Positions 1,879-60,361 of a stretch of 64,000 nucleotides of DNA are shown piece after piece. Origin of the DNA: Octopus sinensis (Eukaryota); the NCBI RefSeq assembly GCF_006345805.1, contig NC_042999.1, forward strand, positions 17,422,001 to 17,486,000, in the 5' to 3' direction. The notes beneath the pieces were generated by a model. The model was not told the origin of the DNA. It ran no database searches and saw nothing but the letters and a program-made list of their open reading frames with translations. Every line of letters starts with the position of its first letter. Position 1 is the first letter of the stretch. Made by a program: the position numbers and the translations under genes.

Positions 1879-1999
1879 TTTTTTTACGATCCCTTTTTAT
1901 CGAAAACCTACCCCCCTCCTTATTTCTCTCCAAAAAGAAAAGCTCTACTTTGTAATTTGTCCCCTCTGTGTTCAGTCCTGTGTGGCTAATAAAGAAACA
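1879..1999 (+). mobile_element. Severely 5'-truncated 3'-UTR stub of the Tx1-type LINE family
   Basis: Matches 60241-60361 (ttttacgatccctttt...aaagaaaagctctac.ttgtaatttgt...tgtgtggctaataaagaaaca). Flanked by a degenerate ~15-bp TSD: tattttcaaattctgt (1863-1878) and tattttaacttctgt (2000-2014). Confidence 0.85.
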
Positions 2000-2243: not shown

Positions 2244-4324
2244 AGGAAGAGAGCAGATTGGAACCTGTACCACACTGAACTACAGCACCCAAACTGGCGT
2301 GAATTCTACAACTCTGGAGATGTGAATACTATACTCCAGAGTATCCTGGACTCAATATGGGCAGCATGTGCAGCATCAGTGCCACGTAAACAAAAAAAGA
2401 AGAACCGCCCCAAAAGGGCAATTTGGGAAACTTCAGCGGTCCGACTTGCCAGGAAGGAACGTCGGACTGCTGAACGGGAATACAGGTTGCATAAATCAGA
2501 CACCAACAGGAAGAAGCTGAATAAATCCTCCAACCATCTCAAGCAAGTGACAAAAAAAGCAGTGCTTGAATTTGAACAGTGCATAGCAGCCAATCCTGAC
2601 AGCAAGGTTTTCTGGAAATATGTGCACTCAAAGCAGAGACCTCACTCTCCAGTGGGCCCTCTTCGCAACCCTCACACAAACCAGATCACTGACGACCCCA
2701 AGGAATGCGCAGAACTCATTGCCGAGTGCTATGCAAACATATTCACTGTTGAAAGTCAAAATGTACCATCTTCACCATCACTAACAGCAAACTCCATAAC
2801 AACTATGGAATTTACACCTGCAATGCTGCGACGTCACCTTCAAAATAAGCGCGACTATGCCTCCCCTGGTCTCGATGGAGTTACATACCTGCTTCTCAAA
2901 CGTGGCAGGCACTTCCTTTTACACCAGCTTTCTATTTTCTTCCAGTACTGTCTCAACAATGGTGCTACTCCGGAGCAGTGGAAAACTGCCAGTGTCATTC
3001 CTCTGTTCAAAAAGGGCGACCGCACATCACCTGTCAACTATCGCCCAGTCAGTCTCACTAGCTGTATTGCAAAACTGATGGAATCGTGTGTCAGAGAAAC
3101 ACTCTGGAACTTCTGGAGCTCTCACAGTCTCATCCGACCCTCACAATATGGATTTGTCCCTAACTCCAGCTGCAGTGACCAGCTAGTCGAGTTCCTTGAG
3201 GACATTACTCAGATTACTGACAGTGGCTCATGGGTGGATGTTGTCTACCTTGACTTTGCTAAGGCTTTAAACTCTGTGCCACACAAAAGGCTTATGGTGA
3301 AACTCTCTGCAATGGGTGTGGGGGATGACCTTTTTAACTGGTTGAAATCCTTCATCCTCAGTCGAAAGGAGGTAGTCACAGTTCTAGGACAGCACTCTAC
3401 ACCATATGAGATGTCATCGGGTGTACCACAGGGATCTGTCCTTGGTCCCCTCTTGTTTGTGGCATACATTAACGACATAGATGCCAATTTAAAGAATGCC
3501 ACAGTATTGAAATATGCAGACGACATCAAGCTGTACCTTGAAATCAAGAGGACAGATCCTGATGTCTACAACTCTTTCCTGCAATCAGACCAAGACACAA
3601 TGCAGCAATGGATCACAGACTGGCAACTGAAACTGGCTGTGGACAAGTGTACCACCATGCATTTTGGGAGAAAAAACCCTGCGTTCACATACTCCCTCCA
3701 CAACACTGATATCAAGAAATCCTCTTGCGAGCGTGACCTAGGCATCACTGTCAGCAGTGATTTGCGTTGGTCAAAGCATATCTCTAAGATTGTCAGGAAG
3801 GCCGAGGGTGTCTTGGCATCACTCAGCAGGTCTTTTGTTAGCCGCTCTCCAGCCATCTATTTAAAACTGTATACAGCTATGGTACGACCACACTTGGAAT
3901 TCGCATCATCAGTTTGGAACCCCTATCTTGCACAGAACATTGACCTCCTGGAATCTGTCCAGAGACGTGCAACCAAACGCATACCCTCCATCAGACACCT
4001 ACGATATTCTGAGCGCCTTGTTTCCCTGGGCATGGATTCACTGAAGCTCCGGCGTTTGGCGACGGACTTGGTAAACACCCACAAAGTTATCAACCACCTC
4101 ACCAACAACAACACTGAACACCTTTTGATCTCCATGTGTCTAACACACGTGGACATGCCTACAAAGTCAGAAAACAATACAGCTCCCATGACTTTCGGAA
4201 ACATTTTTTCACGCTCAGAGTTGCTGAAGCATGGAATAAACTTCCTGCGTCAGTTGTTGACTGCCATGACACTGCATCTTTTAAGGCCCTCATGCTTTCC
4301 GAAATCCGCCGAAACTACACCTGA
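2244..4324 (+). pseudogene. ORF2 reverse transcriptase of the CR1-group LINE (linker, RT and C-terminus; one frameshift near 4123-4126)
   Basis: Frame is open from 2244 (RKRADWNLYH...) through the 676-aa track ORF. The true C-terminus continues in the 4136-4324 frame after loss of one T in a T run. Confidence 0.88.
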
Positions 4325-4397
4325 TTATATATACACTTTAGATGAGTTGTAGTGCACCTGAGCACTGTACACAATTATTATTATTATTATTATTATT
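2244..4397 (+). mobile_element. 5'-truncated CR1-group (CR1/L2-like) non-LTR retrotransposon with (TTA)n tail
   Basis: RT motifs SPGLDG, NYRPVSLTS, YLDFAKA, GVPQGSVLGPLLF, YADD and ERDLGI. C-terminal TRGH...FFTLRV...WNKLP lies in a shifted frame. Short 3' UTR with hairpin gtagtgc-acctga-gcactgt, then (TTA)n. No endonuclease domain is present. Confidence 0.93.
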
Positions 4398-4456
4398 AAA
4401 CATATATAGAGAGAATGTAAGATATGAGGGAGAATGAGAAAGACATTACAATTTAT

Positions 4457-5045
4457 TCTTTGCAATTCTATGCACAAGGCCTGAGATTTTCTGGGAGGGT
4501 CCAGTCGATTAGCTCGACTCCAGTACGCATCTGGTACTTAATTTATCGACTCCGCAAGGATGAAAGGCAAAGTCGACCGCTGCGGAATTTGAACTCAGAA
4601 TGTAAAGACAGACGAAATACCTATTTCTTTATTACCCGCAAGGGGCTAAACATAGAGAAGACAAACAAGTAGAGATAAAATGATTAAGTCGATTACATCG
4701 AGCCCAGTGCGTAACTGGTACTTAATTTATCGACCCGAAAGGATGAAAGGCAAAGTCGACCTCGGCGAAATTTGAACTCAGAACGTAACCGCAGACGAAA
4801 TACCTATTTCTTTATTACCTACCAGGGGGCTAAACACAGAGGGGACAAACAAGGACAGACATAGGTATTAAGTCGATTACATCGACCACAGTGCGTAACT
4901 GGTACTTAATTTATCGACCCCGAAAGGATGAAAGGATGAAAGGCAAAGTCGACCTCGGCGGAATTTGAACTCACAACGTAACGCAGACGAAATACCACTA
5001 AGCATTTCGCCCGGCGTGCTGACGTTTCTACCAGCTCGCCGCCTT
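4457..5045 (-). mobile_element. tRNA-derived SINE family A, concatemer (one head plus three bodies)
   Basis: Head aaggcggcgagctgg... with B-box gagttcaaattcc and central gtcgactttgcctttcatcctttcggggtcgataaattaagtaccag. Internal junctions gaaatac|ctatttc at 4620/4621 and 4803/4804. Confidence 0.9.
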
Positions 5046-11897: not shown

Positions 11898-12131
11898 AAA
11901 AGCGGTAAGCTGGCAGAAGCATTAGCACGCCGGGCGAAATGCTTTGTGGTATTTCGTCCACCGCTGCGTTCTGAGTTCAAATTCCGCCGAGGTCGACTTT
12001 ACCATTCATCCTTTCGGGGTGGATAAATTAAGTACCAGTGACGTACTGGGGTCGATGTAATCGATTTAATCTGTTTGTGTGTACTTGTTTGCCCCCTCTA
12101 TGTTTAGCCCCTTGTGGGCAGTAAAGAAATA
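11898..12131 (+). mobile_element. SINE family A monomer with Tx1-like tail and 16-bp TSD
   Basis: Full head and body, tail ...ttagccccttgtgggcagtaaagaaata. TSD tatttgtattattgca at 11880-11895 and 12132-12147. Confidence 0.92.
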
Positions 12132-13138: not shown

Positions 13139-13352
13139 AAAGGCGGCGAGTTTGCAGAGACGTTAGCTCGCTGGGCGAAATGCTTATCGGCATTTCATCT
13201 GTTTTTACGTTCTGAGTTCAAATTCCTCCGAGGTCGACTTTGCCTTTCATCCTTTCGGGGTCGATAAATTATGTACCAGTTGCGTACTGGGGACAATCTA
13301 AGCGGCTGGCCTCCTGCTGCAAAAGTTCGGGCCTTGTACACAGAGTGGAAAA
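13139..13352 (+). mobile_element. SINE family A monomer with alternative (type 2) tail
   Basis: Same head and body; tail ...ttcgggccttgtacacagagtggaaaa. Confidence 0.88.
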
Positions 13353-14147
13353 AAATCTAGTTATAAGTGTTGCTTCAGCATGACCGCGGGCTTACGACTG
13401 AGACCTCTGAAAGAATAAAAGAATGCACTAACATCAGACATTGGAAGTCACACTTATTATATAAAGAACACCCAAATTTAATACGAGTAGCACGGCGGTG
13501 ACGCTCAATGTATTGTAAAATGTCACAGTAGTGCTGAGCCATACTAAACCACAAATACGTATATATTTACAGGATTTATTGAATCAGTTTTACAAAAAGA
13601 AACGTATGTCGAAAACATTGGTTCTAACTCATAATTGGGGGTCTTCCGTTTTGCACCAACGCATACTACTCTCTTGTGAGCCACCGTGCTGCATCTCTTG
13701 GAAGGACCTCAATATTTCCCAATGAGGAAAATCTCGGGTTGCAAGGAGCACGATTAGCGTGAGTTAGATGGACGATGCATTCCTATATGTAATTAATGCA
13801 GAGTCTATGTAGCAACAGAGAGAAAGTGCACACGGCTCTCTCTCTTTCGCATTGCAGCTATCCAGGATGGAAAACTAAAACTAGGAAGGTAATAAGCACC
13901 AAGCATTTGTCACTGGCATACAAATTGCAGCTCGACAACAATTTTCTGTCTCCATCTCACACATGCACATAAACACTCGCACACATACACACACTCGTGT
14001 ATATCTGCATATATTATAAATGACTAAGCTTACTTAAATATCCCATATACATACACACACACATACACACACACACACACATATATATAATATACAAATA
14101 TATACATATATATACATATATATACATATATACATATATACATATAT

Positions 14148-14223: not shown

Positions 14224-15226
14224 ATACATATACATACGGCATGTTGCCATGCGTGTTTGTGACTCTGTGTGTACACATAATTATCTTTGACACTGTCTTT
14301 CATGATATAAACTGGGAGATAACTTAATTACTATGGTATACGAAAGAAGCGTATGCAACGATAACTGCATAATATATGGAAGGTTTTGGCTCCAGCTATG
14401 TTAAATGATGCATTATTCAAATTCCCAATAAGATATCAATACCATCCTTAGCGATATAGTCAGCCAGCCTTATTAGATATAAACTAACATGAAATATTGC
14501 GATATATCTTGGTCATCCAAATTTAAATAGTTGCCTGTTCGTTCTAAATTTCTCTTTGGATTCTGTTTTTGTTTTTATCATATTCCTGCAGGACGTTCCT
14601 GTATGATGTTGCATATGTGGAACGCGTATTAAATAATCGTATTTTACGTATGTTTCTATTTTGTAAAAATCTAAAGATAACGCATTTTCTTCCATTGATA
14701 TTGATTGCAGCAGTTCTTCTTGCTGTTTAGCGTGTAAACAATTGTATGTGCTTCGTCCTTATCCATCCATCCATCCATCCATCCATCCATCCTTCCATCT
14801 ATCTATCCATCCATCCATCCATCCATCCATCCTTCCATCCATCCATCCATCCATCCATCCATCCATCCATCCATCCATCCATCCATCCATACATACATAC
14901 ATACATACGTACATACATACATACATACATACGTTCATACATACATACATACGGACATACGTACATACATACATACGTACATACATACACACATACATAT
15001 ATACATACTTATATGCGTACATGCCTGCAAGTAACCACTCATAAATACATTGAAATATATATACATGTATTATTCATACACAAACACACACACAAATATA
15101 CATATATCTGTGTCTATCTATGTAACTTTCTATGTATCTGTCACTGTCTTGTTCTCTTACTTTCTTTCTCTATTGGTATATCTATCTATCTATCCATCCA
15201 TCCACCCATCTATGTATCCATCTTTG

Positions 15227-15273
<47 letters not shown>

Positions 15274-15314
15274 ATATATATATATATCTATCTCTCTTTC
15301 TCTCTCTCTCTCTC

Positions 15315-15361
<47 letters not shown>

Positions 15362-16393
15362 ATATAATATATATATATATATATACATATACATACGGGC
15401 ATGTTGCCATGCGTGTTTGTGACTCTGTGTGTACACATAATTATCTTTGACACTGTCTTTCATGATATAAACTGGGAGATAACTTAATTACTATGGTATA
15501 CGAAAGAAGCGTATGCAACGATAACTGCATAATATATGGAAGGTTTTGGCTCCAGCTATGTTAAATGATTGCATTATTCAAATTCCCAATAAGATATCAA
15601 TACCATCCTTAGCGATATAGTCAGCCAGCCTTATTAGATATAAACTAACATGAAATATTGCGATATATCTTGGTCATCCAAATTTAAATAGTTGCCTGTT
15701 CGTTCTAAATTTCTCTTTGGATTCTGTTTTTGTTTTTATCATATTCCTGCAGGACATTCCTGTTTGATGTTACATATGTGGAACGTGTATTAAATAATCG
15801 TATTTTTACGTATGTTTCTATTTTGTGAAATCTAAAGATAACGCATTTTCTTCCATTGATATTGATTGCAGCAGTTCTTCTTGCTGTTTAGCGTGTAAAC
15901 AATTGTATGTGTTTCGTCCTTATCCATCCATCCATCCATCCATCCATCCATCCTTCCATCTATCCATCCATCCATCCATCCATCCATCCATCCATCCTTC
16001 CATCCATCCATCCATCCATCCATCCATCCATCCATCCATCCATCCATCCATACATACATACATACATACGTACATACATACATACATACATACGTTCATA
16101 CATACATACATACGGACATACGTACATACATACATACGTACATACATACACACATACATATATACATACTTATATGCGTACATGCCTGCAAGTAACCACT
16201 CATAAATAGATTGAAATATATATACATGTATTATTCACACACACACACACACACACAGACAAATATACATATATCTGTGTCTATCTATGTAACTTTCTAT
16301 GTATCTGTCACTGTCTTGTTCTCTTACTTTCTTTCTCTATTGGTATATCTATCTATCTATCCATCCATCCACCCATCTATGTATCCATCTTTG

Positions 16394-16440
<47 letters not shown>

Positions 16441-16467
16441 ATATATATATAATAATCTATCTCTCTT

Positions 16468-16500
<33 letters not shown>
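14224..16500. repeat. Near-identical ~1160-bp tandem duplication (units ~14224-15384 and ~15385-16500)
   Basis: Unique sequence ggcatgttgccatgcgtgtttgtgactctg... and embedded (TCCA)n/(TACA)n tracts repeat at an offset of 1160-1161, with few substitutions. Confidence 0.95.
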
Positions 16501-23537: not shown

Positions 23538-23952
23538 TATTTCTTTACTGTCCACAAGAGGCTAAACACAGAGAAGGCAAACAAGGACAGACAAACGGAT
23601 TAAGTCGATTACATCGACGCCAGTGCGTAACTGGTACTTATTTAATCGACTCCGAAAGGATGAAAGGTAAAGTCGACCTTGGCGGAATTTGAACTCAGAA
23701 CGTTGCGGCAGACGTAATACCTATTTCTTTTCTACCCACAAGGGGCTAAACACAAAGGAGAAACAAGGACAGACAAACGGATTAAGTCTATTATATCGAC
23801 GCCAGTGTGTAACTGGTGCTTATTTAATCGGTACCGAAAGGATGAAAAGCAAAGACGACCTCGGCGAAATTTGAACCTAAAACGTAGCGGCAGACGAAAT
23901 ACCGCTAATCATTTCGTCCGGCGCGCTAACGTTTCTGTCAGCTCGTCGCCTT
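23538..23952 (-). mobile_element. SINE family A dimer (head plus two bodies)
   Basis: Junction gtaatac|ctatttc at 23720/23721. Confidence 0.9.
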
Positions 23953-25187
23953 TGAAAATACCACATTATATACGAAATATTTTCTTCCTTTACCAATAAA
24001 GCAAAATTTGAGGCTGGAACTACATGGAATGTAGTTAGAAAGAAACATATGTCAAACATCAATGTCAAATCGTATTCCAGACAGCCGTATGTCATGTTAA
24101 ACTATTTAGTTTCTAAATCAAATACTTGCGTTCATACACCACTCCCATCCTGCAGCAATGCCAAGGAAACAATTGTTGGAAGAATGAAGGAATTATTACA
24201 ATCTACACATTAGCGTGTTCGACTTAATTGTTATTTTATACAATACCCAGTTAAAAATTACTATATAATTTAGATCGTTCGGTCTTTAAGCTGGTTTTTC
24301 TTTTTCCTTTTATAATATAATTTTCTCATCTGATGAACGAAACTAAAAAAATATAAACACGAAACAATACAAATGTTTATCGGCACTTTTAATGTCCGCA
24401 ATACGCATTGATGTTATAGAATGGCGGAAACTATTCATATAGTTATGTATTTTCTTGAAATAATGACCGCAGTATTTTAATATCGATCTGTTTTCTTCGC
24501 CATCGATCCGTCATGTTATGTCATTCAACGTTCGTGTTTCGACAACGCTTCTATATTCTCACAAACAAAATTATCTTCGTGAAGCAACTTTATCGAACTG
24601 TTATAGATTCTTTTCTTTTCTTGTCTATGTTTAAATTTAGGTTGTTCTAGTTAGAGAGACCATTGATGTTGAAATGATGATCTAAGGAAATTAGCACACG
24701 AAGCAATTGCCCTGTTGCACTCTAAAAATCAATGACTCCAGCGAGATGAAACGAAAAGTTATACACACATATAAACAGACTCATACAAACGAAAAAAAAA
24801 AATTCTACAGTGAAACTAATGTCACATGTTTTACGGTTAAAATGTATTTTTATTGTTTACTTGTGTAAGATTTGGTAATTAGTTCAACAGAGTTAACCAA
24901 TAAGAATGAACATTTATCGCAGACATCAATGGTGTGTTGAAGTCGTTGAAGGACATCAAAGTAACCAGTTTGACATTCGTGTTTCTGTCTGCCCGACGAG
25001 ATAATGTTAATAATCTTAATAACCAGCACTGGAAAGCAAAATACTTCACAACATAATAATGTCTGGTGTCACCTCGACTGAAATTTGAAGAATTAATTAA
25101 GAATTTTATTAATTTTCTACTAAACAAAAACTGTGTATGAACATTGTGGGGTCATAATTCACACTGAAGCAATATGCATGCATATGT

Positions 25188-26051: not shown

Positions 26052-26628
26052 GTCCCGCCGAGGTCCACTTTGCCTTTCATCCTATTGGGGTCGATAAAAT
26101 TAAGTACCAGTTGCATACTGGGTCGTTCTAATCGACTAGCCCCCTCTTCCAGAATTTCGAGGTTTGTGCCCAAAGTAGAAAAATATTTATGGTGGTGATC
26201 TGGCAGAAACGTTAGCACGCCGGGCGTAATGCTTAGCGGTGTTTCGCCTCTCTTTATGTTCTGAGTTCAAATTCAGCCGAGGTCGCCTTTACCTTTCATC
26301 CTTTCGCGGTCGATAAACTAAGCACCAGTTGCGTACTGGGATCGATCTAATCGATTAGCCCCTTCCTCCAAAATGCCGGGCCTTGTGACTGGAGTAGAAA
26401 AGAATATTTAAGGTGGCTCGCTGGCAGAAACTTTAGCACACCGGGGGTAAATGCCCAGCGGTATTTCGTCCGTCTTTAGGTTCTGAGTTCAAATTCCGCC
26501 GAGGTCGACGTTACCTTTCATCCTTTCGGGATCGATAAATTAAGCACCAGTACGAACTGGGGTCGATCTAACCAGCTGCCCCTCACCTCTTCCAATATTT
26601 CGAGTCTTCTGCTTAGAGTAGAAAAGAA
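26052..26628 (+). mobile_element. Head-to-tail cluster of three SINE family A copies (type 2 tail)
   Basis: Units ~26052-26188 (5'-truncated), 26190-26406 and 26409-26628, each ending ...agtagaaaa.aatat. Confidence 0.88.
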
Positions 26629-32830: not shown

Positions 32831-34299
32831 GATCACATTGGTTCATTTTCGCCAGAAGAATTTAAGCTCTAATAGTTTAATATTTTATCAAACATAGAGT
32901 ATGTCCAATATTATATCCTTCCTATTCTGTAGGAAGAAAACCTAGGAAGAAGTGTGCAGCAGGTATTCTTCAGATTAGGTCTCACTTATGTTAGTGTTTC
33001 CCCACTTAACTCCTCTTCCTTTGGGGATCCAGGCTGCATCCATGTGATGATTCCTGGGAATGACTCTCTTGCTGTATTCTCTCCGTATTGCGACCCTCTT
33101 GGATGGTCAATGTGCTCCAGGGCGACACTATTTCCTATTTTGTATTGTAGTGTATTGTTGTTTTGATGAAAATTGGTAGTGCTTTCAAATCGGGCATTTG
33201 TTCACATAAATTGGTTATCGTAACAAGACGAAGGAACTATATACTATTTAACGTAGTGCAAATAAGTTCTTTTAACATTTTTGTGTTTGTCACTTGCTCA
33301 TAATTTCGAAATACTCTAATATTAGGTTATTTTATGATTTCTAAGTAATCATACGTTATAATTTGTTTGCTCAATGTAACACAGGCGCAAATCTCATCGA
33401 TGTTTTCTGTGAAAATGGTTTCATTTCTTTTATGTTTTTCTACAAATTCACATACACTCACAATTTAATGTGATATAAAGTTTGTTTTCCACAATTTGCT
33501 TCTCAGCAATACATCTTTGAACTACTAATGCCTTTTTATTCATATAAATATTGATTTAGTTTGTACTGGCTTAAAATGATATAAGCAAGTGCGTTATCTA
33601 TTAACTCTTTAAACACTACAGTTCCGAAGACTAAAGAAATATTCATTCTGTCCGCAATTCGAGCATGAATCTAGGCTTCGTTTCTCGAGACGAATATGAC
33701 GTATTAAACCCGGGACTGAGAAGTAATGAACTATGTATGACAAATATCCAATTTGTCGTGGACAGTAAACGTTTGGCAACAAAGATGCATCTGGAAGAGT
33801 CAAGGGATTCTAATTGTTCTTTTGTTATTTACAAACATTGACAACTTGCAAACACGGAGCATCAGCAATTTGTCCATAAAATCAAATATGTTAACTATTA
33901 GCATTGCAATGTTTCATAATTATTGATCTCTCTAACCAACAGAACGCACAAAAGACCAGAAAGGCTATATCCATTATATCGTTACAATTATTTATATTAT
34001 TATATTTGTCGTTTTCTTCTGTCTGGTAGCTATAGCGAAAGATACTTTTTCTCTTCAGCCAAGTCCTCATCGACTTTATCAAGTTCCACTTGAAAAGGAT
34101 ATTGAGGGTGGAGAGGAGGTACTATCCCTCAGTATTTTTTGCTTGAAAGATGAGTGAATGTAACGAGGACAGGAAATGTGGTTGGGCCTACTCTGACGAT
34201 ACGCTTATAAACCAGAGGATTTGAGACGGAGAGGGGAACCAGCTGAGATTACCTGGCGGTCGGGCTAAGAATTACGTGAGGGATACTTTGGTTGTCCTT

Positions 34300-36288: not shown

Positions 36289-36490
36289 GAAGGCGGCAAG
36301 CTGGCAGAATTGTTAGCACGTTGGACTAAATACTTAGCGATATTTGATTTCAAATTCCGCCGAGGTACACTTTGCCTTCCATCCTTTCGTGATCGATGAA
36401 TTAAGTACTAGTGAAATACTGGGGTCAATGTAATCGACTACTCCCCATCCCCCAAATTTCAAGCTTTGTGCCTATCGTAGAGAAAATTAT
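36289..36490 (+). mobile_element. SINE family A copy (type 2 tail, internal deletion)
   Basis: aaggcggcaagctggcagaa...ttcaaattccgccgagg...ctttgtgcctatcgtagagaa. Confidence 0.8.
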
Positions 36491-36709
36491 TGTTATAGCT
36501 AATCTGTTTTATGTTCAAACTGACCAGATCCAGGCCCTCACACCTACCCTACAATGTTATTCTACATTAAGTAATTACACCATCAAGATCTTGAAGATAT
36601 GAGATAATGCATGATTAATTGAAATCAGTGGGAATCAATAGGCATTATGTTTGATAGAATAATCTGAACACTAAAGGGTTAAGTTGGCGTGCTGGCAGAA
36701 TCATTCTTG

Positions 36710-42624: not shown

Positions 42625-43033
42625 GTATGTATGTATGTATAGTCAATGAACTTGCATTAATAGATGCATTGTGAACTGGAAATAAATTATTAGATGAGGA
42701 AATGGCATTCACTTACTTATCCAGTTAATTCAATCGTATCGTTATAGAGATATGATACAAATAGTAATCTTCAGAAATGTTAAATGAGAACACGAATAAG
42801 TAAGTACTAATAAACCGTCTCTGTAAAATCAACTGGTAGTGAACCCTCACTAATTCAAAAGAAGTGATTACTAAATGTCAGTGTTGCACAAAAATACATC
42901 ATTACAATTGACTTGTTTTAATAAAGAAATAACAAGAAAAATGAAATAACACTTGAGATGTTCTAATTCTGAATTTGCATAGAATAATACTGTTTTTTCT
43001 GCGGACATTCATTTTTATTATGCAAAAAACATG

Positions 43034-43651
43034 TTTTTCTACTCTAGGTACAAGGCCCTAATTTTTTTTTGGGGGGGGGGCAGTCGATTAGATCGACCCC
43101 CGTACGCAACTGGTTCTTAATTTGTCGAGCCTGAAAGGATAAAAGGCAACGTCGACCTCGGCGGAATTTGAACTCAGAACGTAGCGGCAGACGAAATACC
43201 TATTTGTTTACTACCCACAAGGGGCTAAACACAGAGAGAACAAACAAGGACAGACAAACGGATTAAGTCGATTATATCGACCCCAGTGCGTAACTGGTAC
43301 TTATTTAATCGAGTCCGAAAGGATGAAAGACAAGGTTGACCTCGGCAGAAATTGAACTCAGAATGGGAAGATAGACGAAATATCTGTTTCTTTATTACCC
43401 ACACGGGTAAACATAGAGGACGACAAACAAGGACAGACAAACAGATTAAGTCGATTATATCGACCCCAGTGCGTAACTGGTGCTTATTTAATCGACCCCG
43501 AAAGGATGAAAGGTAAAATCGACCTCGGCGGAATTTGAATTGAGAACGTTATGGCAGACGAAATACCTATTTCTTTACTACCCACAACGGCCGACGAAAT
43601 ACAGCCAAGCATTTCGCCCGGTGTGCTAACGTTTCTGGCAGCTCACCGCCT
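43034..43651 (-). mobile_element. SINE family A concatemer (head, 20-nt stub, three bodies)
   Basis: Junctions at 43199/43200, 43383/43384 and 43566/43567; the terminal unit has the type 2 tail. Confidence 0.92.
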
Positions 43652-44489
43652 TATTTTTTCTATATAAATATTGATATCTCGTTTTTGGATTTCGCGTGCA
43701 AGATTCGTTATGTGAGTTCGCGTGTCTATAAACTCGTGCAAAAAAACTAAGCCTGAAACACGTTGATGCAAAGTAATCCTTTTAATTATACAGCTGAGCC
43801 TGTGCCTATGTTTTATAGAATATTTAATATTGTTTTGAAAGTGAAGGAATTCACTACAGCTGCACAAATTCAGTTCACTCATAAATATAATGACCTATAA
43901 ATGACGATCTTTTAAACACTACGTTTCTATATTTTCTGTGTCCTCAAGATATAATATCATAGCTTCTATATTATTGCTATATCAGAACAGATTATATTTT
44001 TATTTGAAAATAAAAATTCATGTGTCATTTTATTAAAGAACGTCAAGTTATTAAACTGTCAAACTCAACATAAAGATATATTTTATTCGAATATTAATTG
44101 TGAGACAAGCGAGTGTTATTTTCACCAAGTAAATTTAATGTGACTCAGAGGTTCTCAATCTAGCCACTCCTTAGTCGAAAGATGACAGGATGTTAGATAG
44201 ACATAGCACAAATCAATAAATTTGCTAAATATAAATTCACACATTTTATATTTAAGTATTTACAAATGTGTCAATTCTTTCAATTCTTGTTGAATATTGG
44301 CAACGCCATTCCTTTTCTTTCCTGCTTTATTTATCGATTTTACCCGAGTTTTAAAGTGTTTCCTTTATTTCTCCGTGTTTTTAAATGACATAAAAAAATA
44401 GAGTTAGTTTCGGTCAAAATCTCAAATCCACGATAATATATTCCACATGCTTTAATATTAAATAATTTAGAACTGAGTTAGGTATTGGA

Positions 44490-50529: not shown

Positions 50530-50534
<5 letters not shown>

Positions 50535-50740
50535 CTTTACTACCCACAAGGGGCTAAACACAGAGGGGACAAACAAGGACAGACACACGGATTAAGTCGA
50601 TTACATCGCCCCGAGTGCGTTACTGGTGCTTAATTTATCGACCGCGAAAGGATGAAAAGCAAAGTCGACCTCAACGGAATTTGAACCCAGAACGTAACGG
50701 CAGACGAAATACGGCTACGCATTCCGCCTGGCGTGCTAAA
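50530..50740 (-). mobile_element. SINE family A (Tx1-like tail) inserted in (TA)n
   Basis: tatttctttactacccacaaggggctaaacacagaggggacaaac...; slightly 5'-truncated. Confidence 0.9.
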
Positions 50741-51103: not shown

Positions 51104-51336
51104 TATTTCTTTACTACCCACAAGGGGCTAAACACACAGAGGACAAACTAGGACAGACAAACGGATTAAGTCGATTATATCGACCCCAGTGCGTAACTGG
51201 TACTTATTTAATCGACCCCGAAAGGATGAAAGGCAAAGTCGTCCTCGGCGGAATTTGAACTCAGAACGTAGCGGCAGACGAAATACCGCAAAGCATTTCG
51301 CCCGGCGTGCTATCGTTTCTGCCAGCTCGCCGCCTT
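51104..51336 (-). mobile_element. Full-length SINE family A with 17-bp TSD
   Basis: TSD atggtagtgcaagtacc (51087-51103) / atggtagtgctagtacc (51337-51353) defines the element ends. Confidence 0.95.
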
Positions 51337-57230: not shown

Positions 57231-58640
57231 GAATTTTTATGTTTATTTTTGAAATTTTGTATGAGGACAAATTCACAAATATAAACTATTCAACATAAAA
57301 TATTCAAATATAAACGATACAACATACAATATTCAAAACAGCTTATAGCACTCTTTATAAATCTCACCAGATGGCTTTAAATATAAATTCGTAGATAGTG
57401 AAAACTTTCACATTCTGAAATAATTATTTAGAAATTATTAAACTAAATGTTACTTTGATCACCAAATTCTGTATTAAATACATAAATAGCACATAAAAGA
57501 TATACATTCTTAATTGCTGATAGTAATAAACATTTTAAATATACGTTTGGAGATTACGCATATCTCCTCGCTATTTAAAATTTCATGAAAACTTCTGGTA
57601 GCGCTTGTAACAAATAATTAAGAATGGCACATAAACTAGTGATCAAAATTCATTTACCAAAATATTTTTACTCTCTATTTTATGTTAAGGCAATTAATAC
57701 GTGTTGCAGATATCAACGTTAATACTACCGTGGTAATATATAAGACGATTCTTTTTCGCTTCAAGTTTTGAGCTTCTATCTAAATAGAATTCATTTCTTA
57801 AGCAATATTTTTGCCCTGATTCAATTTCTAGTTATGGTAAATGGATATGTCCGTAATTCAGTGAAGAGTCGTTGTTGATATTTTTAGTGTTTATTAGATT
57901 TGACCGAATGCATCTTTCAACTAAACGGTTTTCACCCAGAGGGTAACATTCCTTTTTAAGTAGAGCACATTACACAACCTCATCTACGAGGCCCTTCGAT
58001 ATGCTGACGTTAAGGTAGGATGTAATAGGAGAATTCGTTTGCTTTTCGTAGCAGAACGATGTACCACGTTGAAATTTCTGAATGGCTGGTGTAATAGAAT
58101 GAATGGTAATCCATAAGCATTTCTAATATGATAAAAAAATATATATAATTTTGACAATATTTGTGCTTTTCTGTGTAATACTCCGTCAAATAACCAACTT
58201 CACAAAGAGAAAAATCGTAGTGAACGCTAAAACCAAATGCCAGGCAACTTCAGATTCTCAGTAAATTGAAGCAATGTATATTTCCGGACTAGAGACAGAT
58301 GCCGAGTTTGCAACTTACGTATGTGTACACACACACACACACACACACACAAATACACACACACACACACAGTTAACAAGTTGTCAAGTGTGGAACATGA
58401 CAATCGCTACATAAATCTGAATGAAAGCACTAGTTTATTTCAATATTGTTATAATATTTTAATATTGTAGTTTATTTCAATATTGTAAAACTGTAGAACT
58501 TGTAACAATTTTAAAACGTAAAATGTGAAAATGAAACTAAGTCGGAATTTCGTTGTTGTATATATTCTTCTACATACAATCATCCAAACACTGATATCTA
58601 TGTATCTATCTATGTATGTAGCTATCTATCTATCTATCTC

Positions 58641-60361
58641 GTCATAGTGTCTAGCCACGAGCACATCGAGCAGGTCGGCGAGACACTGAAGCGGTGACAG
58701 GAGCAAAAATCAACCGGGAAAAGTCAGTGGGCTTGCGACTAGGCACCTGGAGAAGCAAGCCCATGCCGTCCACCAGCGCCTCCGTCGTGGGACGCTGGAC
58801 CGACAGCCCGGTTGAGTTGCTCGGGGTCTGGTTTGGTCCGGACCTCCAAGTGGAGAAGAACTGGAACGAGATAACGAGTAGGGTGGTCACTCTCGCCCGG
58901 CAATGGGCCGAGAGGAAACTGTCCCTAAAAGGTCGGGCGGAGGTGGCGAACACGTACATCGCGTCCGTCATCTACTACCGCCTGACCGTCCTACCTTGTC
59001 CCGACCCTACCATCACCAAACTACAACGCATTCTCTTTCGCTTCTTGTGGAAAGGATGCGTCCCGATGGTCAGGCGATCCATTTGCTGTCAACACCCGTT
59101 AAAAGGAGGGCTGGGCATGCCGTGGTTGATGATGCGCAGACACGCGCTGAGACTGCGACATCTCTGGCTCTATGTAGACGACGGTGAACAGGTGTGGTCG
59201 CCGTTTGTGAGGCACGCTTTCCCGCAGCTCGTCTCCATGACCGAACTGCAGTCGTGGATCAAAAAGAGGCCGAGGAAGGGCGAATGGCACCGCGAGGGTC
59301 GCGTTGCTCTCAAGCAACTCTGCCGTTCTTGGTCGACCTTGAGTGACTTCAACACAACCAAAGCATTCTATAGGGGTTTAGTGGAGGGGAGGTACGACGA
59401 CGAGCTCGGGGCGAACCTGGACGTCGACGAGGAGTACCTGACCCGCGTGTTCAGGACGACTTTCGGGCCAGGGCCCATGAACAACTTCCAGAGATCCTTG
59501 GTCTGGCAGTGCTACCAAGAAGCGCTACCCGTTCGGGATAAGCTCTACAGACACGGCTCGAGAAACACGGGGCCGACCTGCCCGAGATGCGGTCAGAGCG
59601 ACGAAACCGTTCTGCACGCACTCGTGCAGTGTCCAACAATTTCCGACCTGTGGGTTTATGTCGAACAACTGCTGTCACGTGTGGGACGAGTCGGTTTATC
59701 AGCTGAGTCTATCGTCAATATTGTCACGCCTCCTTCCTTCAAACGGGAAGGAAGAGCTATTTTCATCATCCTAGGGCTATGGCGAAGGAATGTATCTGGT
59801 GGACGCGTCTGAAAGGATTGGAGACAAACACTTTCCTCTCTGGTCAATCTCTCATCAACTTCTTCAAGTACCACTTGAAAAGGAAAGTGAGTGTAGAGAG
59901 GCAAGTTTTGTCTAGCGAATGTTTTAAAAAAAGATGGGTGAATGTAGCAAGAATGGCACGTATGAATGACGAAGCCACCTTGAGCATGATCCTATGAACC
60001 CAGAAATTGAAAACAGAGAGTTGCTTATTCGCAAAAAAAAAAAAAAAGAATATAACATGTGACTCCATTGACCGAGGTTACCGTGGTCTTTTCCGTAGGC
60101 TTTTCTTTCCACGGGTAAACCTCACCTGTCCTCCCCTTTACACTTCATATTGACATTTCTGTGATAACGATCCCTATTGATCAATTTTTTTTCCTCTCCC
60201 CCTTTTTTTAACACCCCTTTTTTTTGTCCTCTTTCTCTCCTTTTACGATCCCTTTTGATCGAAACTCCCCCTTCCTTTTTTTTTTTAAACCTTCAAAAGA
60301 AAAGCTCTACCTTGTAATTTGTTCTATCTGTGTGCAGCCCTGTGTGGCTAATAAAGAAACA
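58641..60361 (+). mobile_element. 5'-truncated Tx1-type (L1 group) LINE inserted in (TATC)n
   Basis: Begins just after the YADD region (VIVSSHEHIEQVGETLK...AVTGAKINREKS). Later motifs: LLGVWFG, LSLKGRAEVAN, KGGLGMP and CCHC knuckle CPRCGQSDETVLHALVQC. Frameshifts near 58690 and 59775, stop at 59997. T-rich 3' UTR ending aataaagaaaca. Confidence 0.92.

What the first reader, a model, noticed from the sequence alone, without database searches (positions are those of the whole stretch)
1879..1999. The dominant tRNA-SINE carries the 3' end of a Tx1-type LINE: a Tx1/SINE partner pair
Seen: the last 44 nt of the Tx1 3' UTR (1956-1999, tttgtcccctctgtgttcagtcctgtgtggctaataaagaaaca; also 60318-60361) align without gaps at 37/44 to the terminal 44 nt of SINE family A (reverse complement of 50530-50573, tttgtcccctctgtgtttagccccttgtgggtagtaaagaaata). 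Both can form a stem-loop at the same place (AGCC-6nt-GGCT in the 60.3-kb LINE copy; GCCC-5nt-GGGT in the SINE), and neither ends in poly(A). Established: stringent LINEs (CR1, L2, RTE) donate 3' tails to their SINEs, whereas L1-group elements usually mobilise via poly(A). Inference: this SINE subfamily is mobilised by a stringent Tx1 element. The same head and body also occur with an unrelated type 2 tail (13139, 26190, 36289), implying a tail swap between LINE partners.
Basis: partly seen in the sequence, partly recalled or inferred. Interest (0 to 1): 0.8.

Follow-up and report, generated by a model that had tools for sequence, protein, structure and literature searches.

The report
Octopus SINE carries Tx1 retrotransposon tail
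The youngest form of a very abundant octopus short jumping gene (a SINE) ends in the same ~60-base tail as a whole group of Tx1-type retrotransposons, so it likely borrows their copying enzyme by showing a predicted RNA hairpin instead of a poly(A) tail, a pairing not found in the papers searched.

Summary
Observation confirmed: 37/44 ungapped (shuffles reach at most 28/44). The LINE is a two-ORF APE-RT element of the L1/Tx1 group that inserts into (CTAT)n. The tail is not private to it. About 20 Tx1-like 3' ends in this genome (RT 63-100% identical where an RT could be aligned) share one design: a pyrimidine-rich stretch, a small predicted hairpin whose stem changes on both sides, then AATAAAGAAA, and no poly(A). 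The SINE tail (over 87,000 exact copies) has this design, and its target-site duplications (median 16 bp) match Tx1's (mostly 16-18 bp). Two corrections. The window's Tx1 families are relatives, not the closest tail match: a rare sister family fits the last 28 nt better, and no sampled family matches both tail and target. The type 2 tail is not unrelated: it shares the CTTGT-loop hairpin and best matches an ORF1-only Tx1 derivative, so the swap happened within the Tx1 group. In addition, 13 of 41 SINE copies sit at one site in another SINE's head, and the target's first base tracks the tail haplotype, which suggests read-through RNA helps pick the target. Stringent recognition is inferred, not assayed.

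The parts
1879..1999 (+). 5'-truncated 3' UTR of Tx1-like family B; imperfect 15-16 bp TSD by eye (1863-1878 / 2000-2014)
   Evidence: copies of this family continue into ORF2, about 84% identical in DNA to family A
1956..1999 (+). terminal 44 nt shared with the SINE tail (pyrimidine stretch, predicted hairpin, AATAAAGAAA end)
58640..60361 (+). 5'-truncated Tx1-like family A copy (end of ORF2 with zf-RVT, then 3' UTR), inserted in (CTAT)n
60318..60361 (+). family A terminal 44 nt, 34/44 to the SINE tail, stem AGCC/GGCT with 6-nt loop
50530..50739 (-). SINE with type 1 (Tx1-type) tail, 5'-truncated
51104..51336 (-). full-length type 1 SINE with a 17-bp TSD that begins GGTA
11899..12131 (+). full-length type 1 SINE with a perfect 16-bp TSD
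43028..43652 (-). nested array: SINE head, a 20-nt 5'-truncated type 1 tail flanked by a ~15-bp duplication of head position 50, two more type 1 units, then a type 2 tail (ends approximate)
4450..5045 (-). nested array: two type 1 units followed by a type 2 tail, junctions at head position 50 (ends approximate)
23538..23953 (-). two type 1 units joined at head position 50
13139..13362 (+). SINE with type 2 tail (degraded CTTGT-loop hairpin)
26190..26408 (+). SINE with type 2 tail, in a cluster of three
36289..36495 (+). older SINE with type 2 tail

Best explanation
The SINE's type 1 tail is homologous to the 3' end shared by a radiation of octopus Tx1-group LINEs, and the SINE is likely copied in trans by a Tx1 ORF2 protein that likely recognises the predicted 3' hairpin rather than poly(A). 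Shown: tail homology, absence of poly(A), matching TSD lengths, stem changes on both sides across families, retention of the tail by an ORF1-only derivative, and an age order of tail types (3, then 2, then 1). Inferred: Pol III transcription from the A/B boxes; hairpin binding; nicking at loose Y|DRWA-like sites; reverse transcription starting at the tail end. Also inferred: the RNA runs a few bases into the master copy's downstream flank and pairs with the nicked target, so each tail haplotype inherits its own target start and copies nested in a SINE head keep seeding that same site. The driving family is not identified (my odds: C/G/F-side or extinct family about 0.55, the abundant A/B lineage about 0.35, other about 0.1).
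For: Tail found only in SINE and Tx1 ends. Design shared by all Tx1 lineages sampled, which form one RT clade (support 99, quick tree). Best-stem score summed over 20 tails beats shuffles (p=0.0025; upstream control p=0.71), with stems AGCC/GGCT, GCCC/GGGT, GATC/GATC, GATT/AATC, AGGC/GCCT. 5 of 82 SINE copies are identical to a family C copy over the last 28 nt, and 5 of 82 to a family F copy over the 29-nt 5' half. TSDs: SINE median 16 bp in 36 copies; Tx1 16-18 bp in 18 of 24. The ORF1-only family keeps the tail. G-starting targets: 76 of 106 GGGT-type tails vs 0 of 36 GGGCAAT tails, and the pre-insertion copy starts with G in 8 of 8 TAAT cases. In L2 LINEs the loop sets specificity and the stem is general (PMC4176376, passages).
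Against: Each hairpin alone is weak (p 0.07-0.72; z mostly above -2) and the families are related, so p=0.0025 overstates. No sampled family matches tail and target together. Family C has only 15 exact ends, none followed by GGTAT, TATAT or AGAAA. A/B (4,726 exact ends, 87 of 100 listed into TATCT) differ in the loop. A pattern search for a LINE with the exact SINE tail found 19 hits, none with Tx1 ORF2. The conserved AATAAA could be kept as a polyadenylation signal. No RNA-end or assay data. The Tx1 (rather than L1) label rests on indirect evidence.
Confidence: 0.75

Rival explanations
1. One-to-one pair: the SINE is driven specifically by the window's A/B Tx1 lineage.
For: A/B is by far the most abundant Tx1 counted (4,726 exact ends vs 15 for C). 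B's divergence (median 4.7%, n=6) overlaps the SINE's (4.4-5.5%). Both favour C at -1 and T at +3 of the target. If RNA read-through picks the target, different targets do not exclude the same enzyme.
Against: Best tail match for only 13 of 82 copies (B) and 0 (A). Last 28 nt match 20-21/28 vs 26/28 for C. 6-nt vs 5-nt loop. The SINE is not seen in TATCT among 100 listed ends.
Confidence: 0.3
2. The tail was captured from Tx1 but recognition is relaxed: it is kept for AATAAA-type 3' processing or an A-rich end, and the hairpin is incidental.
For: AATAAA is the most conserved part; single hairpins are weak.
Against: Stem letters change on both sides between families while pairing is kept. The pyrimidine stretch 5' of the stem is also conserved. 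Many SINE copies carry AGTAAA instead (79 of 165 TAGT). No poly(A) is copied.
Confidence: 0.15
3. Haplotype-specific targets reflect different Tx1 endonucleases serving different SINE subfamilies, not RNA read-through.
For: The Tx1 families here differ strongly in target; G-lineage copies have TSDs starting GGTAG and AGAAA, like the SINE classes.
Against: The haplotypes differ by 1-2 bases outside the loop. The two TSD copies disagree most at +2 (6/36) and +1 (3/36) vs 1/36 at +3, mostly with the 3' copy showing GG, TA or AG (small numbers).
Confidence: 0.3
4. The SINE arrays arose by tandem duplication or unequal exchange, not by repeated insertion at head position 50.
For: Arrays of up to about 8 evenly spaced units exist.
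Against: Arrays mix tail types and haplotypes; a 20-nt truncated tail sits there with its own duplication; solo copies with verified TSDs also start GGTA.
Confidence: 0.15

Closest known systems
Stringent SINE/LINE pairs (UnaSINE/UnaL2, ZfL2; the 58 pairs of Ohshima 2012, PMC3472496)
   Same: Shared 3' tail of about 50-60 nt with a small hairpin; tail exchange on a constant head and body.
   Different: The partner here is Tx1-group. Table S1 (part 1 of 2 read, whole file searched) lists no Tx1 and no octopus pair, although the survey's Repbase set held 60 Tx1 families.
Maize ZmSINE2/3 with LINE1-1_ZM; Chlamydomonas SINEX-3_CR with L1-1_CR (PMC3472496, first third read)
   Same: L1-group LINE with a conserved ~45-nt 3' hairpin, compensatory stem changes, tail shared with SINEs.
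   Different: Those are plant and algal L1s; this is an animal, target-selective Tx1-like lineage without poly(A), with a very high SINE copy number.
Crocodilian SINEU with Tx1-Mar (PMC4494074, parts 1-4 of 5 read)
   Same: SINE assigned to Tx1 machinery; strong target preference; tandem copies sandwiching a TSD.
   Different: SINEU was linked by target only, ends in poly(A), has snRNA heads, and no LINE shares the SINEU-1 3' end. Here the tail itself is shared and the head is tRNA-like.
Octopus OR1/OR2 CORE-SINEs (Ohshima and Okada 1994; seen only as cited in PMC4758252, PMC4824008, PMC5804259)
   Same: Octopus tRNA-type SINE with a CORE-like body (resemblance recalled, not tested).
   Different: Identity with OR1, OR2 or OK could not be tested; no partner LINE is given in the passages read.
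Kibi/Koshi microsatellite-targeting Tx1; HAL1 half-L1 elements
   Same: Family A inserts into a microsatellite; family N codes for ORF1 only.
   Different: The target is (CTAT)n rather than (TC)n or (TTC)n (PMC4494074). HAL1 is known to me from title and recall only (paper not held).

Membership tests
Tx1 clade | Two ORFs; ORF2 with APE endonuclease, RT and C-terminal zinc motif | tested here: met
   ORF1 with a CCHC knuckle; ORF2 with PF03372, PF00078, PF13966; intact 1,126-1,140-aa frames in sister families
Tx1 clade | RT groups with reference Tx1 elements rather than L1 | tested here: inconclusive
   Closest PDB entry is human L1 ORF2 (233 bits over 864 aa). The RT region scores 287 bits to a coral protein named 'Transposon TX1 149 kDa protein', which itself scores 145 bits to L1. 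No curated Tx1 or L1 reference was in the tree.
Tx1 clade | Target-sequence preference | tested here: met
   33 of 35 family A ends followed by TATCT; other families repeat their own targets. Among APE LINEs only Tx1 and R1 are site-specific (PMC13295347, passage).
Stringent SINE/LINE pair | Shared 3'-terminal sequence beyond chance | tested here: met
Stringent SINE/LINE pair | Conserved 3' stem-loop | tested here: met
   Aggregate p=0.0025 with two-sided stem changes; weak singly; predicted only
Stringent SINE/LINE pair | Matching TSD length | tested here: met
   SINE median 16 bp, Tx1 mostly 16-18 bp
Stringent SINE/LINE pair | Matching target consensus with one named partner family | tested here: not met
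   Neither A/B nor C reproduces the SINE's target classes
Stringent SINE/LINE pair | Tail required for retrotransposition and bound by ORF2p | not testable with these tools
   needs an assay
tRNA-derived CORE-SINE (OR1/OR2) | tRNA-like head with A and B boxes | tested here: inconclusive
   A- and B-box-like motifs by eye in the first 90 nt (consensus recalled); ARAGORN finds no tRNA
tRNA-derived CORE-SINE (OR1/OR2) | CORE domain; identity with deposited OR1/OR2 | not testable with these tools
   no Repbase, SINEBase or Dfam access
HAL1-type ORF1-only element (family N) | ORF1 homolog followed directly by the 3' end, no ORF2 | tested here: met
   E down to 4e-27 to Tx1 ORF1s; zinc knuckle 919-967 nt before the end in 4 copies; no ORF2 hit on the element strand in the 1.5 kb upstream of 20 copies

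The most novel reading that the evidence does not exclude
A whole animal Tx1 radiation uses hairpin-based, poly(A)-free 3' recognition and has supplied successive tails to the octopus's major SINE; and target choice is partly heritable through read-through RNA, so a SINE nested in its own head breeds further insertions at that exact site.
Probability: 0.4. Interest if true: 0.8.

Novelty: new variant of a known kind. Interest (0 to 1): 0.62.

Why it matters
It would name the engine class behind the octopus SINE expansion (SINEs are 11.6% of the O. vulgaris genome, PMC13282606, first third read). It would add an animal L1-group lineage to the short list with stringent tails, bearing on Ohshima's proposal that poly(A) recognition is a derived relaxation. 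Natural stem and loop variants across about 20 tails, with intact ORF2 frames in several families, make loop-specificity and target-inheritance experiments directly possible.

Tried and rejected
Exact donor search: a LINE-upstream plus SINE-stem pattern gave 3 hits, all family-B-type ends; a GACCC-anchored pattern gave 19 hits, all SINE-derived by eye and none with ORF2. Boundary-based TSD calling for Tx1 was unreliable and was replaced by a flank search. Regex search for type 2/3 tails outside SINEs found only degraded copies; the HMM search found family N. No autonomous LINE with the type 2 or type 3 tail was found. The window's CR1 ends differently. SINE-to-LINE transfer of the tail was rejected because the tail spans RT lineages 63% identical while type 1 SINEs are about 5% diverged. 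Cluster look-up gave no informative names. MAFFT did not put the stems in register, so no pair count was run on it. Earlier-findings look-ups were empty. Ten paper searches found no Tx1-tailed SINE and no octopus SINE partner. Subscription papers (Ohshima and Okada 1994, Kojima and Fujiwara 2004, Akasaki 2010), Repbase, SINEBase and Dfam could not be seen and may already record the pairing. Two papers were not held.

Full report
Setting. The window lies in G000 (2.7 Gb). The closest named relative of the LINE protein is from Argonauta, so the genome is taken to be an octopod's (inference). Family letters below are mine.

1. Observation. The 44-mer at 1956-1999 matches the SINE end at 50530-50573 in 37 of 44 positions without gaps, and the copy at 60318-60361 in 34. 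The best of 200 dinucleotide shuffles reaches 28. A weight matrix of the tail run over the window plus 60 arbitrary 10-kb stretches hit 46 SINE ends, 3 Tx1 ends, nothing else, and nothing in reversed sequence. A 23-nt core of the SINE tail occurs exactly 87,523 times in the genome, control 0; the sampled density suggests roughly 190,000 copies (inference). None of 165 SINE ends or 132 Tx1 ends is followed by six A.

2. The LINE. Family A (58640-60361) has ORF1 with a CCHC knuckle and ORF2 with APE, RT and zf-RVT. All 30 fetched copies end at the same base and are followed by TAT; most truncated copies have (CTAT)n on both sides. The A/B end occurs exactly 4,726 times, and 87 of the 100 listed are followed by TATCT (counted by eye). 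Family B (1879-1999) is a sister family. The clade is L1-group by PDB hits. Tx1 rather than L1 is supported indirectly: target specificity, a stronger RT score to a TX1-named coral protein than to human L1, and the listing of L1-Tx1 but not L1 among recently active O. vulgaris LINEs (PMC13282606 Table 1). No curated reference was in my tree.

3. The tail belongs to a radiation. A zf-RVT search returned 150 places; I examined 30 loci from it plus 40 chosen stretches and three family searches. Every lineage ends the same way: a TTGT...GTCC...CTCTATGT-like stretch, a small stem-loop, then AATAAAGAAA. Their RTs are 63-100% identical to one reference and form a clade with the Argonauta protein (support 99; quick tree, the careful search did not finish). 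Stems differ on both sides between families: AGCC/GGCT, GCCC/GGGT, ACCT/AGGT, GATT/AATC, GATC/GATC, AGGC/GCCT. The summed best-stem score of 20 tails beats shuffles (p=0.0025), an upstream control does not (p=0.71), and no single tail is significant. The families are related, so this p is indicative only.

4. Which family is closest. Of 82 type 1 SINE tails, the best match among 26 representative ends was C for 49, B for 13, F for 13, G140 for 5, others 2, A for none. The SINE tail looks like an F-type 5' half (exact over 29 nt in 5 of 82) joined to a C-type 3' half (exact over 28 nt in 5 of 82). Family C is rare (15 exact ends of the variant searched) and its flanks do not match the SINE's. 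Searches for a LINE with the whole SINE tail failed. So the donor is in this radiation but unidentified, perhaps extinct.

5. Insertion signature. 21 of 53 full-length SINEs have a TSD (null 1%); many of the rest are nested units. In a larger set of 165 copies (part of them picked from the list, largely non-nested ones), 53 nested copies and microsatellite flanks were set aside and 36 gave TSDs: 13-23 bp, median 16, starting at the tail end, with pre-insertion consensus about Y|DRTA. Of 88 Tx1 ends outside microsatellites, 24 had an upstream repeat of the flank (null 4 in up to 400 draws), and 18 of these were 16-18 bp; several share a target and are not independent. Divergence from column majority: type 1 4.4-5.5%, type 2 8.5% and 14%, type 3 17%; Tx1 B 4.7%, F 4.3%, C 2.5%, A 0.7% (medians; LINE samples are small and biased to best hits).

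6. The type 2 tail is a cousin. Type 1, 2 and a third type all have the loop CTTGT, with stems GCCC/GGGY, AGGC/GCCT and TGGC/GCCA. An HMM of type 2 tails found a non-SINE family N. N has a type-1-like pyrimidine stretch, the type 2 stem and AATAAAGA, and a Tx1 ORF1 homolog whose knuckle lies 919-967 nt from the end in 4 copies, leaving no room for ORF2. N is the best match for 16 of 17 type 2 and 12 of 14 type 3 tails (score 33 vs shuffle maximum 18; N was found with the type 2 model, so this is partly circular). The succession 3, 2, 1 is therefore best read as tail renewal within the Tx1 group. The autonomous owner of the type 2 tail was not found.

7. Self-nesting and inherited targets. In the unbiased sample 13 of 41 type 1 copies are followed by head position 50 of another SINE and 1 by position 17; chance is about 1 in 10,000 per insertion (from 230 heads per Mb). 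A 20-nt truncated tail with its own duplication at 43.6 kb and arrays that end in an older type 2 tail point to insertion. The target's first base follows the tail haplotype: G in 25 of 27 TAAT and 51 of 79 TAGT, 0 of 36 CAAT (Fisher p about 1e-15, copies not independent); in the subset not chosen by pattern 12/12, 20/28 and 0/17. The pre-insertion copy shows the same bias (8 of 8 vs 1 of 10), so it is a real target preference. Disagreements between the two TSD copies cluster at +1 and +2. I infer that transcripts run into the master copy's flank and pair with the nicked target; co-transcription with target sequence is noted as strengthening specificity for other elements (PMC4494074). The rival is separate endonucleases. 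If read-through is right, target mismatch does not exclude A/B as the driver.

8. Mechanism and odds. Shown: homology, no poly(A), TSD agreement, two-sided stem variation, retention by a non-autonomous element. Inferred: hairpin-dependent trans-mobilisation by Tx1 ORF2p (0.75); read-through target inheritance (about 0.55); the driver's identity is open.

9. Relation to what is known. It works like the stringent L2, CR1 and RTE pairs and the monocot and algal L1 cases (PMC3472496, PMC3747384 passages and section 1.4, PMC4176376 passages). It fails one membership test for a named pair: no single family matches tail and target. The only Tx1-SINE link found in print is SINEU, by target alone and with poly(A) (PMC4494074). 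Kojima 2018 (PMC5786205, passages) has no mention of Tx1 or octopus. Ten searches found no Tx1-tailed SINE; Repbase, SINEBase, Dfam and subscription papers were not visible. Verdict: real, a new variant of a known kind, interest 0.62.

Noticed in passing
L250:6728-6891 (G000:C15, same place as L204): An H-lineage Tx1 copy ends immediately before the 5' end of a full-length U1 snRNA (Rfam 125 bits); possibly a U1-targeting Tx1, seen once.
   Followed up: partly
L373-L392: Family N: ORF1-only (HAL1-like) Tx1 derivative with recurring targets of its own.
   Followed up: partly
L175:2030-2145: A short insert with a hybrid tail (type-1-like 5' part, type 2 stem) in front of another repeat; parent unknown.
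   Followed up: partly
L205-L212, L214-L243, L144-L163: Several Tx1 families each reuse one target inside other repeats and form tandem copies about 5.3-5.7 kb apart sandwiching a 16-18 bp TSD; several ORF2 frames of 1,126-1,140 aa are intact.
   Followed up: partly
L226: A G-family copy is inserted into the tail of a G140-family copy, TSD starting GGTAG.
   Followed up: no
L284, L287, L288, L295, L297, L300, L302, L045, L110: Type 1 SINEs, often 5'-truncated, also sit in the antisense strand of other SINE bodies at recurring sites.
   Followed up: no
window 2244-4352 (+): 702-aa RT frame of a different (CR1-like by my reading) LINE, ending in (ATT)n near 4400, with an unrelated 3' end.
   Followed up: no
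window 34066-34116 (+): Old Tx1 ORF2 fragment, 84% identical to family A over 51 nt.
   Followed up: no
window 14667-16500: A local duplication of about 1.16 kb, 95-99% identical.
   Followed up: no
L164-L183: Old Tx1 family D (70-77% between copies) ending before (ATT)n, with the same tail design.
   Followed up: partly
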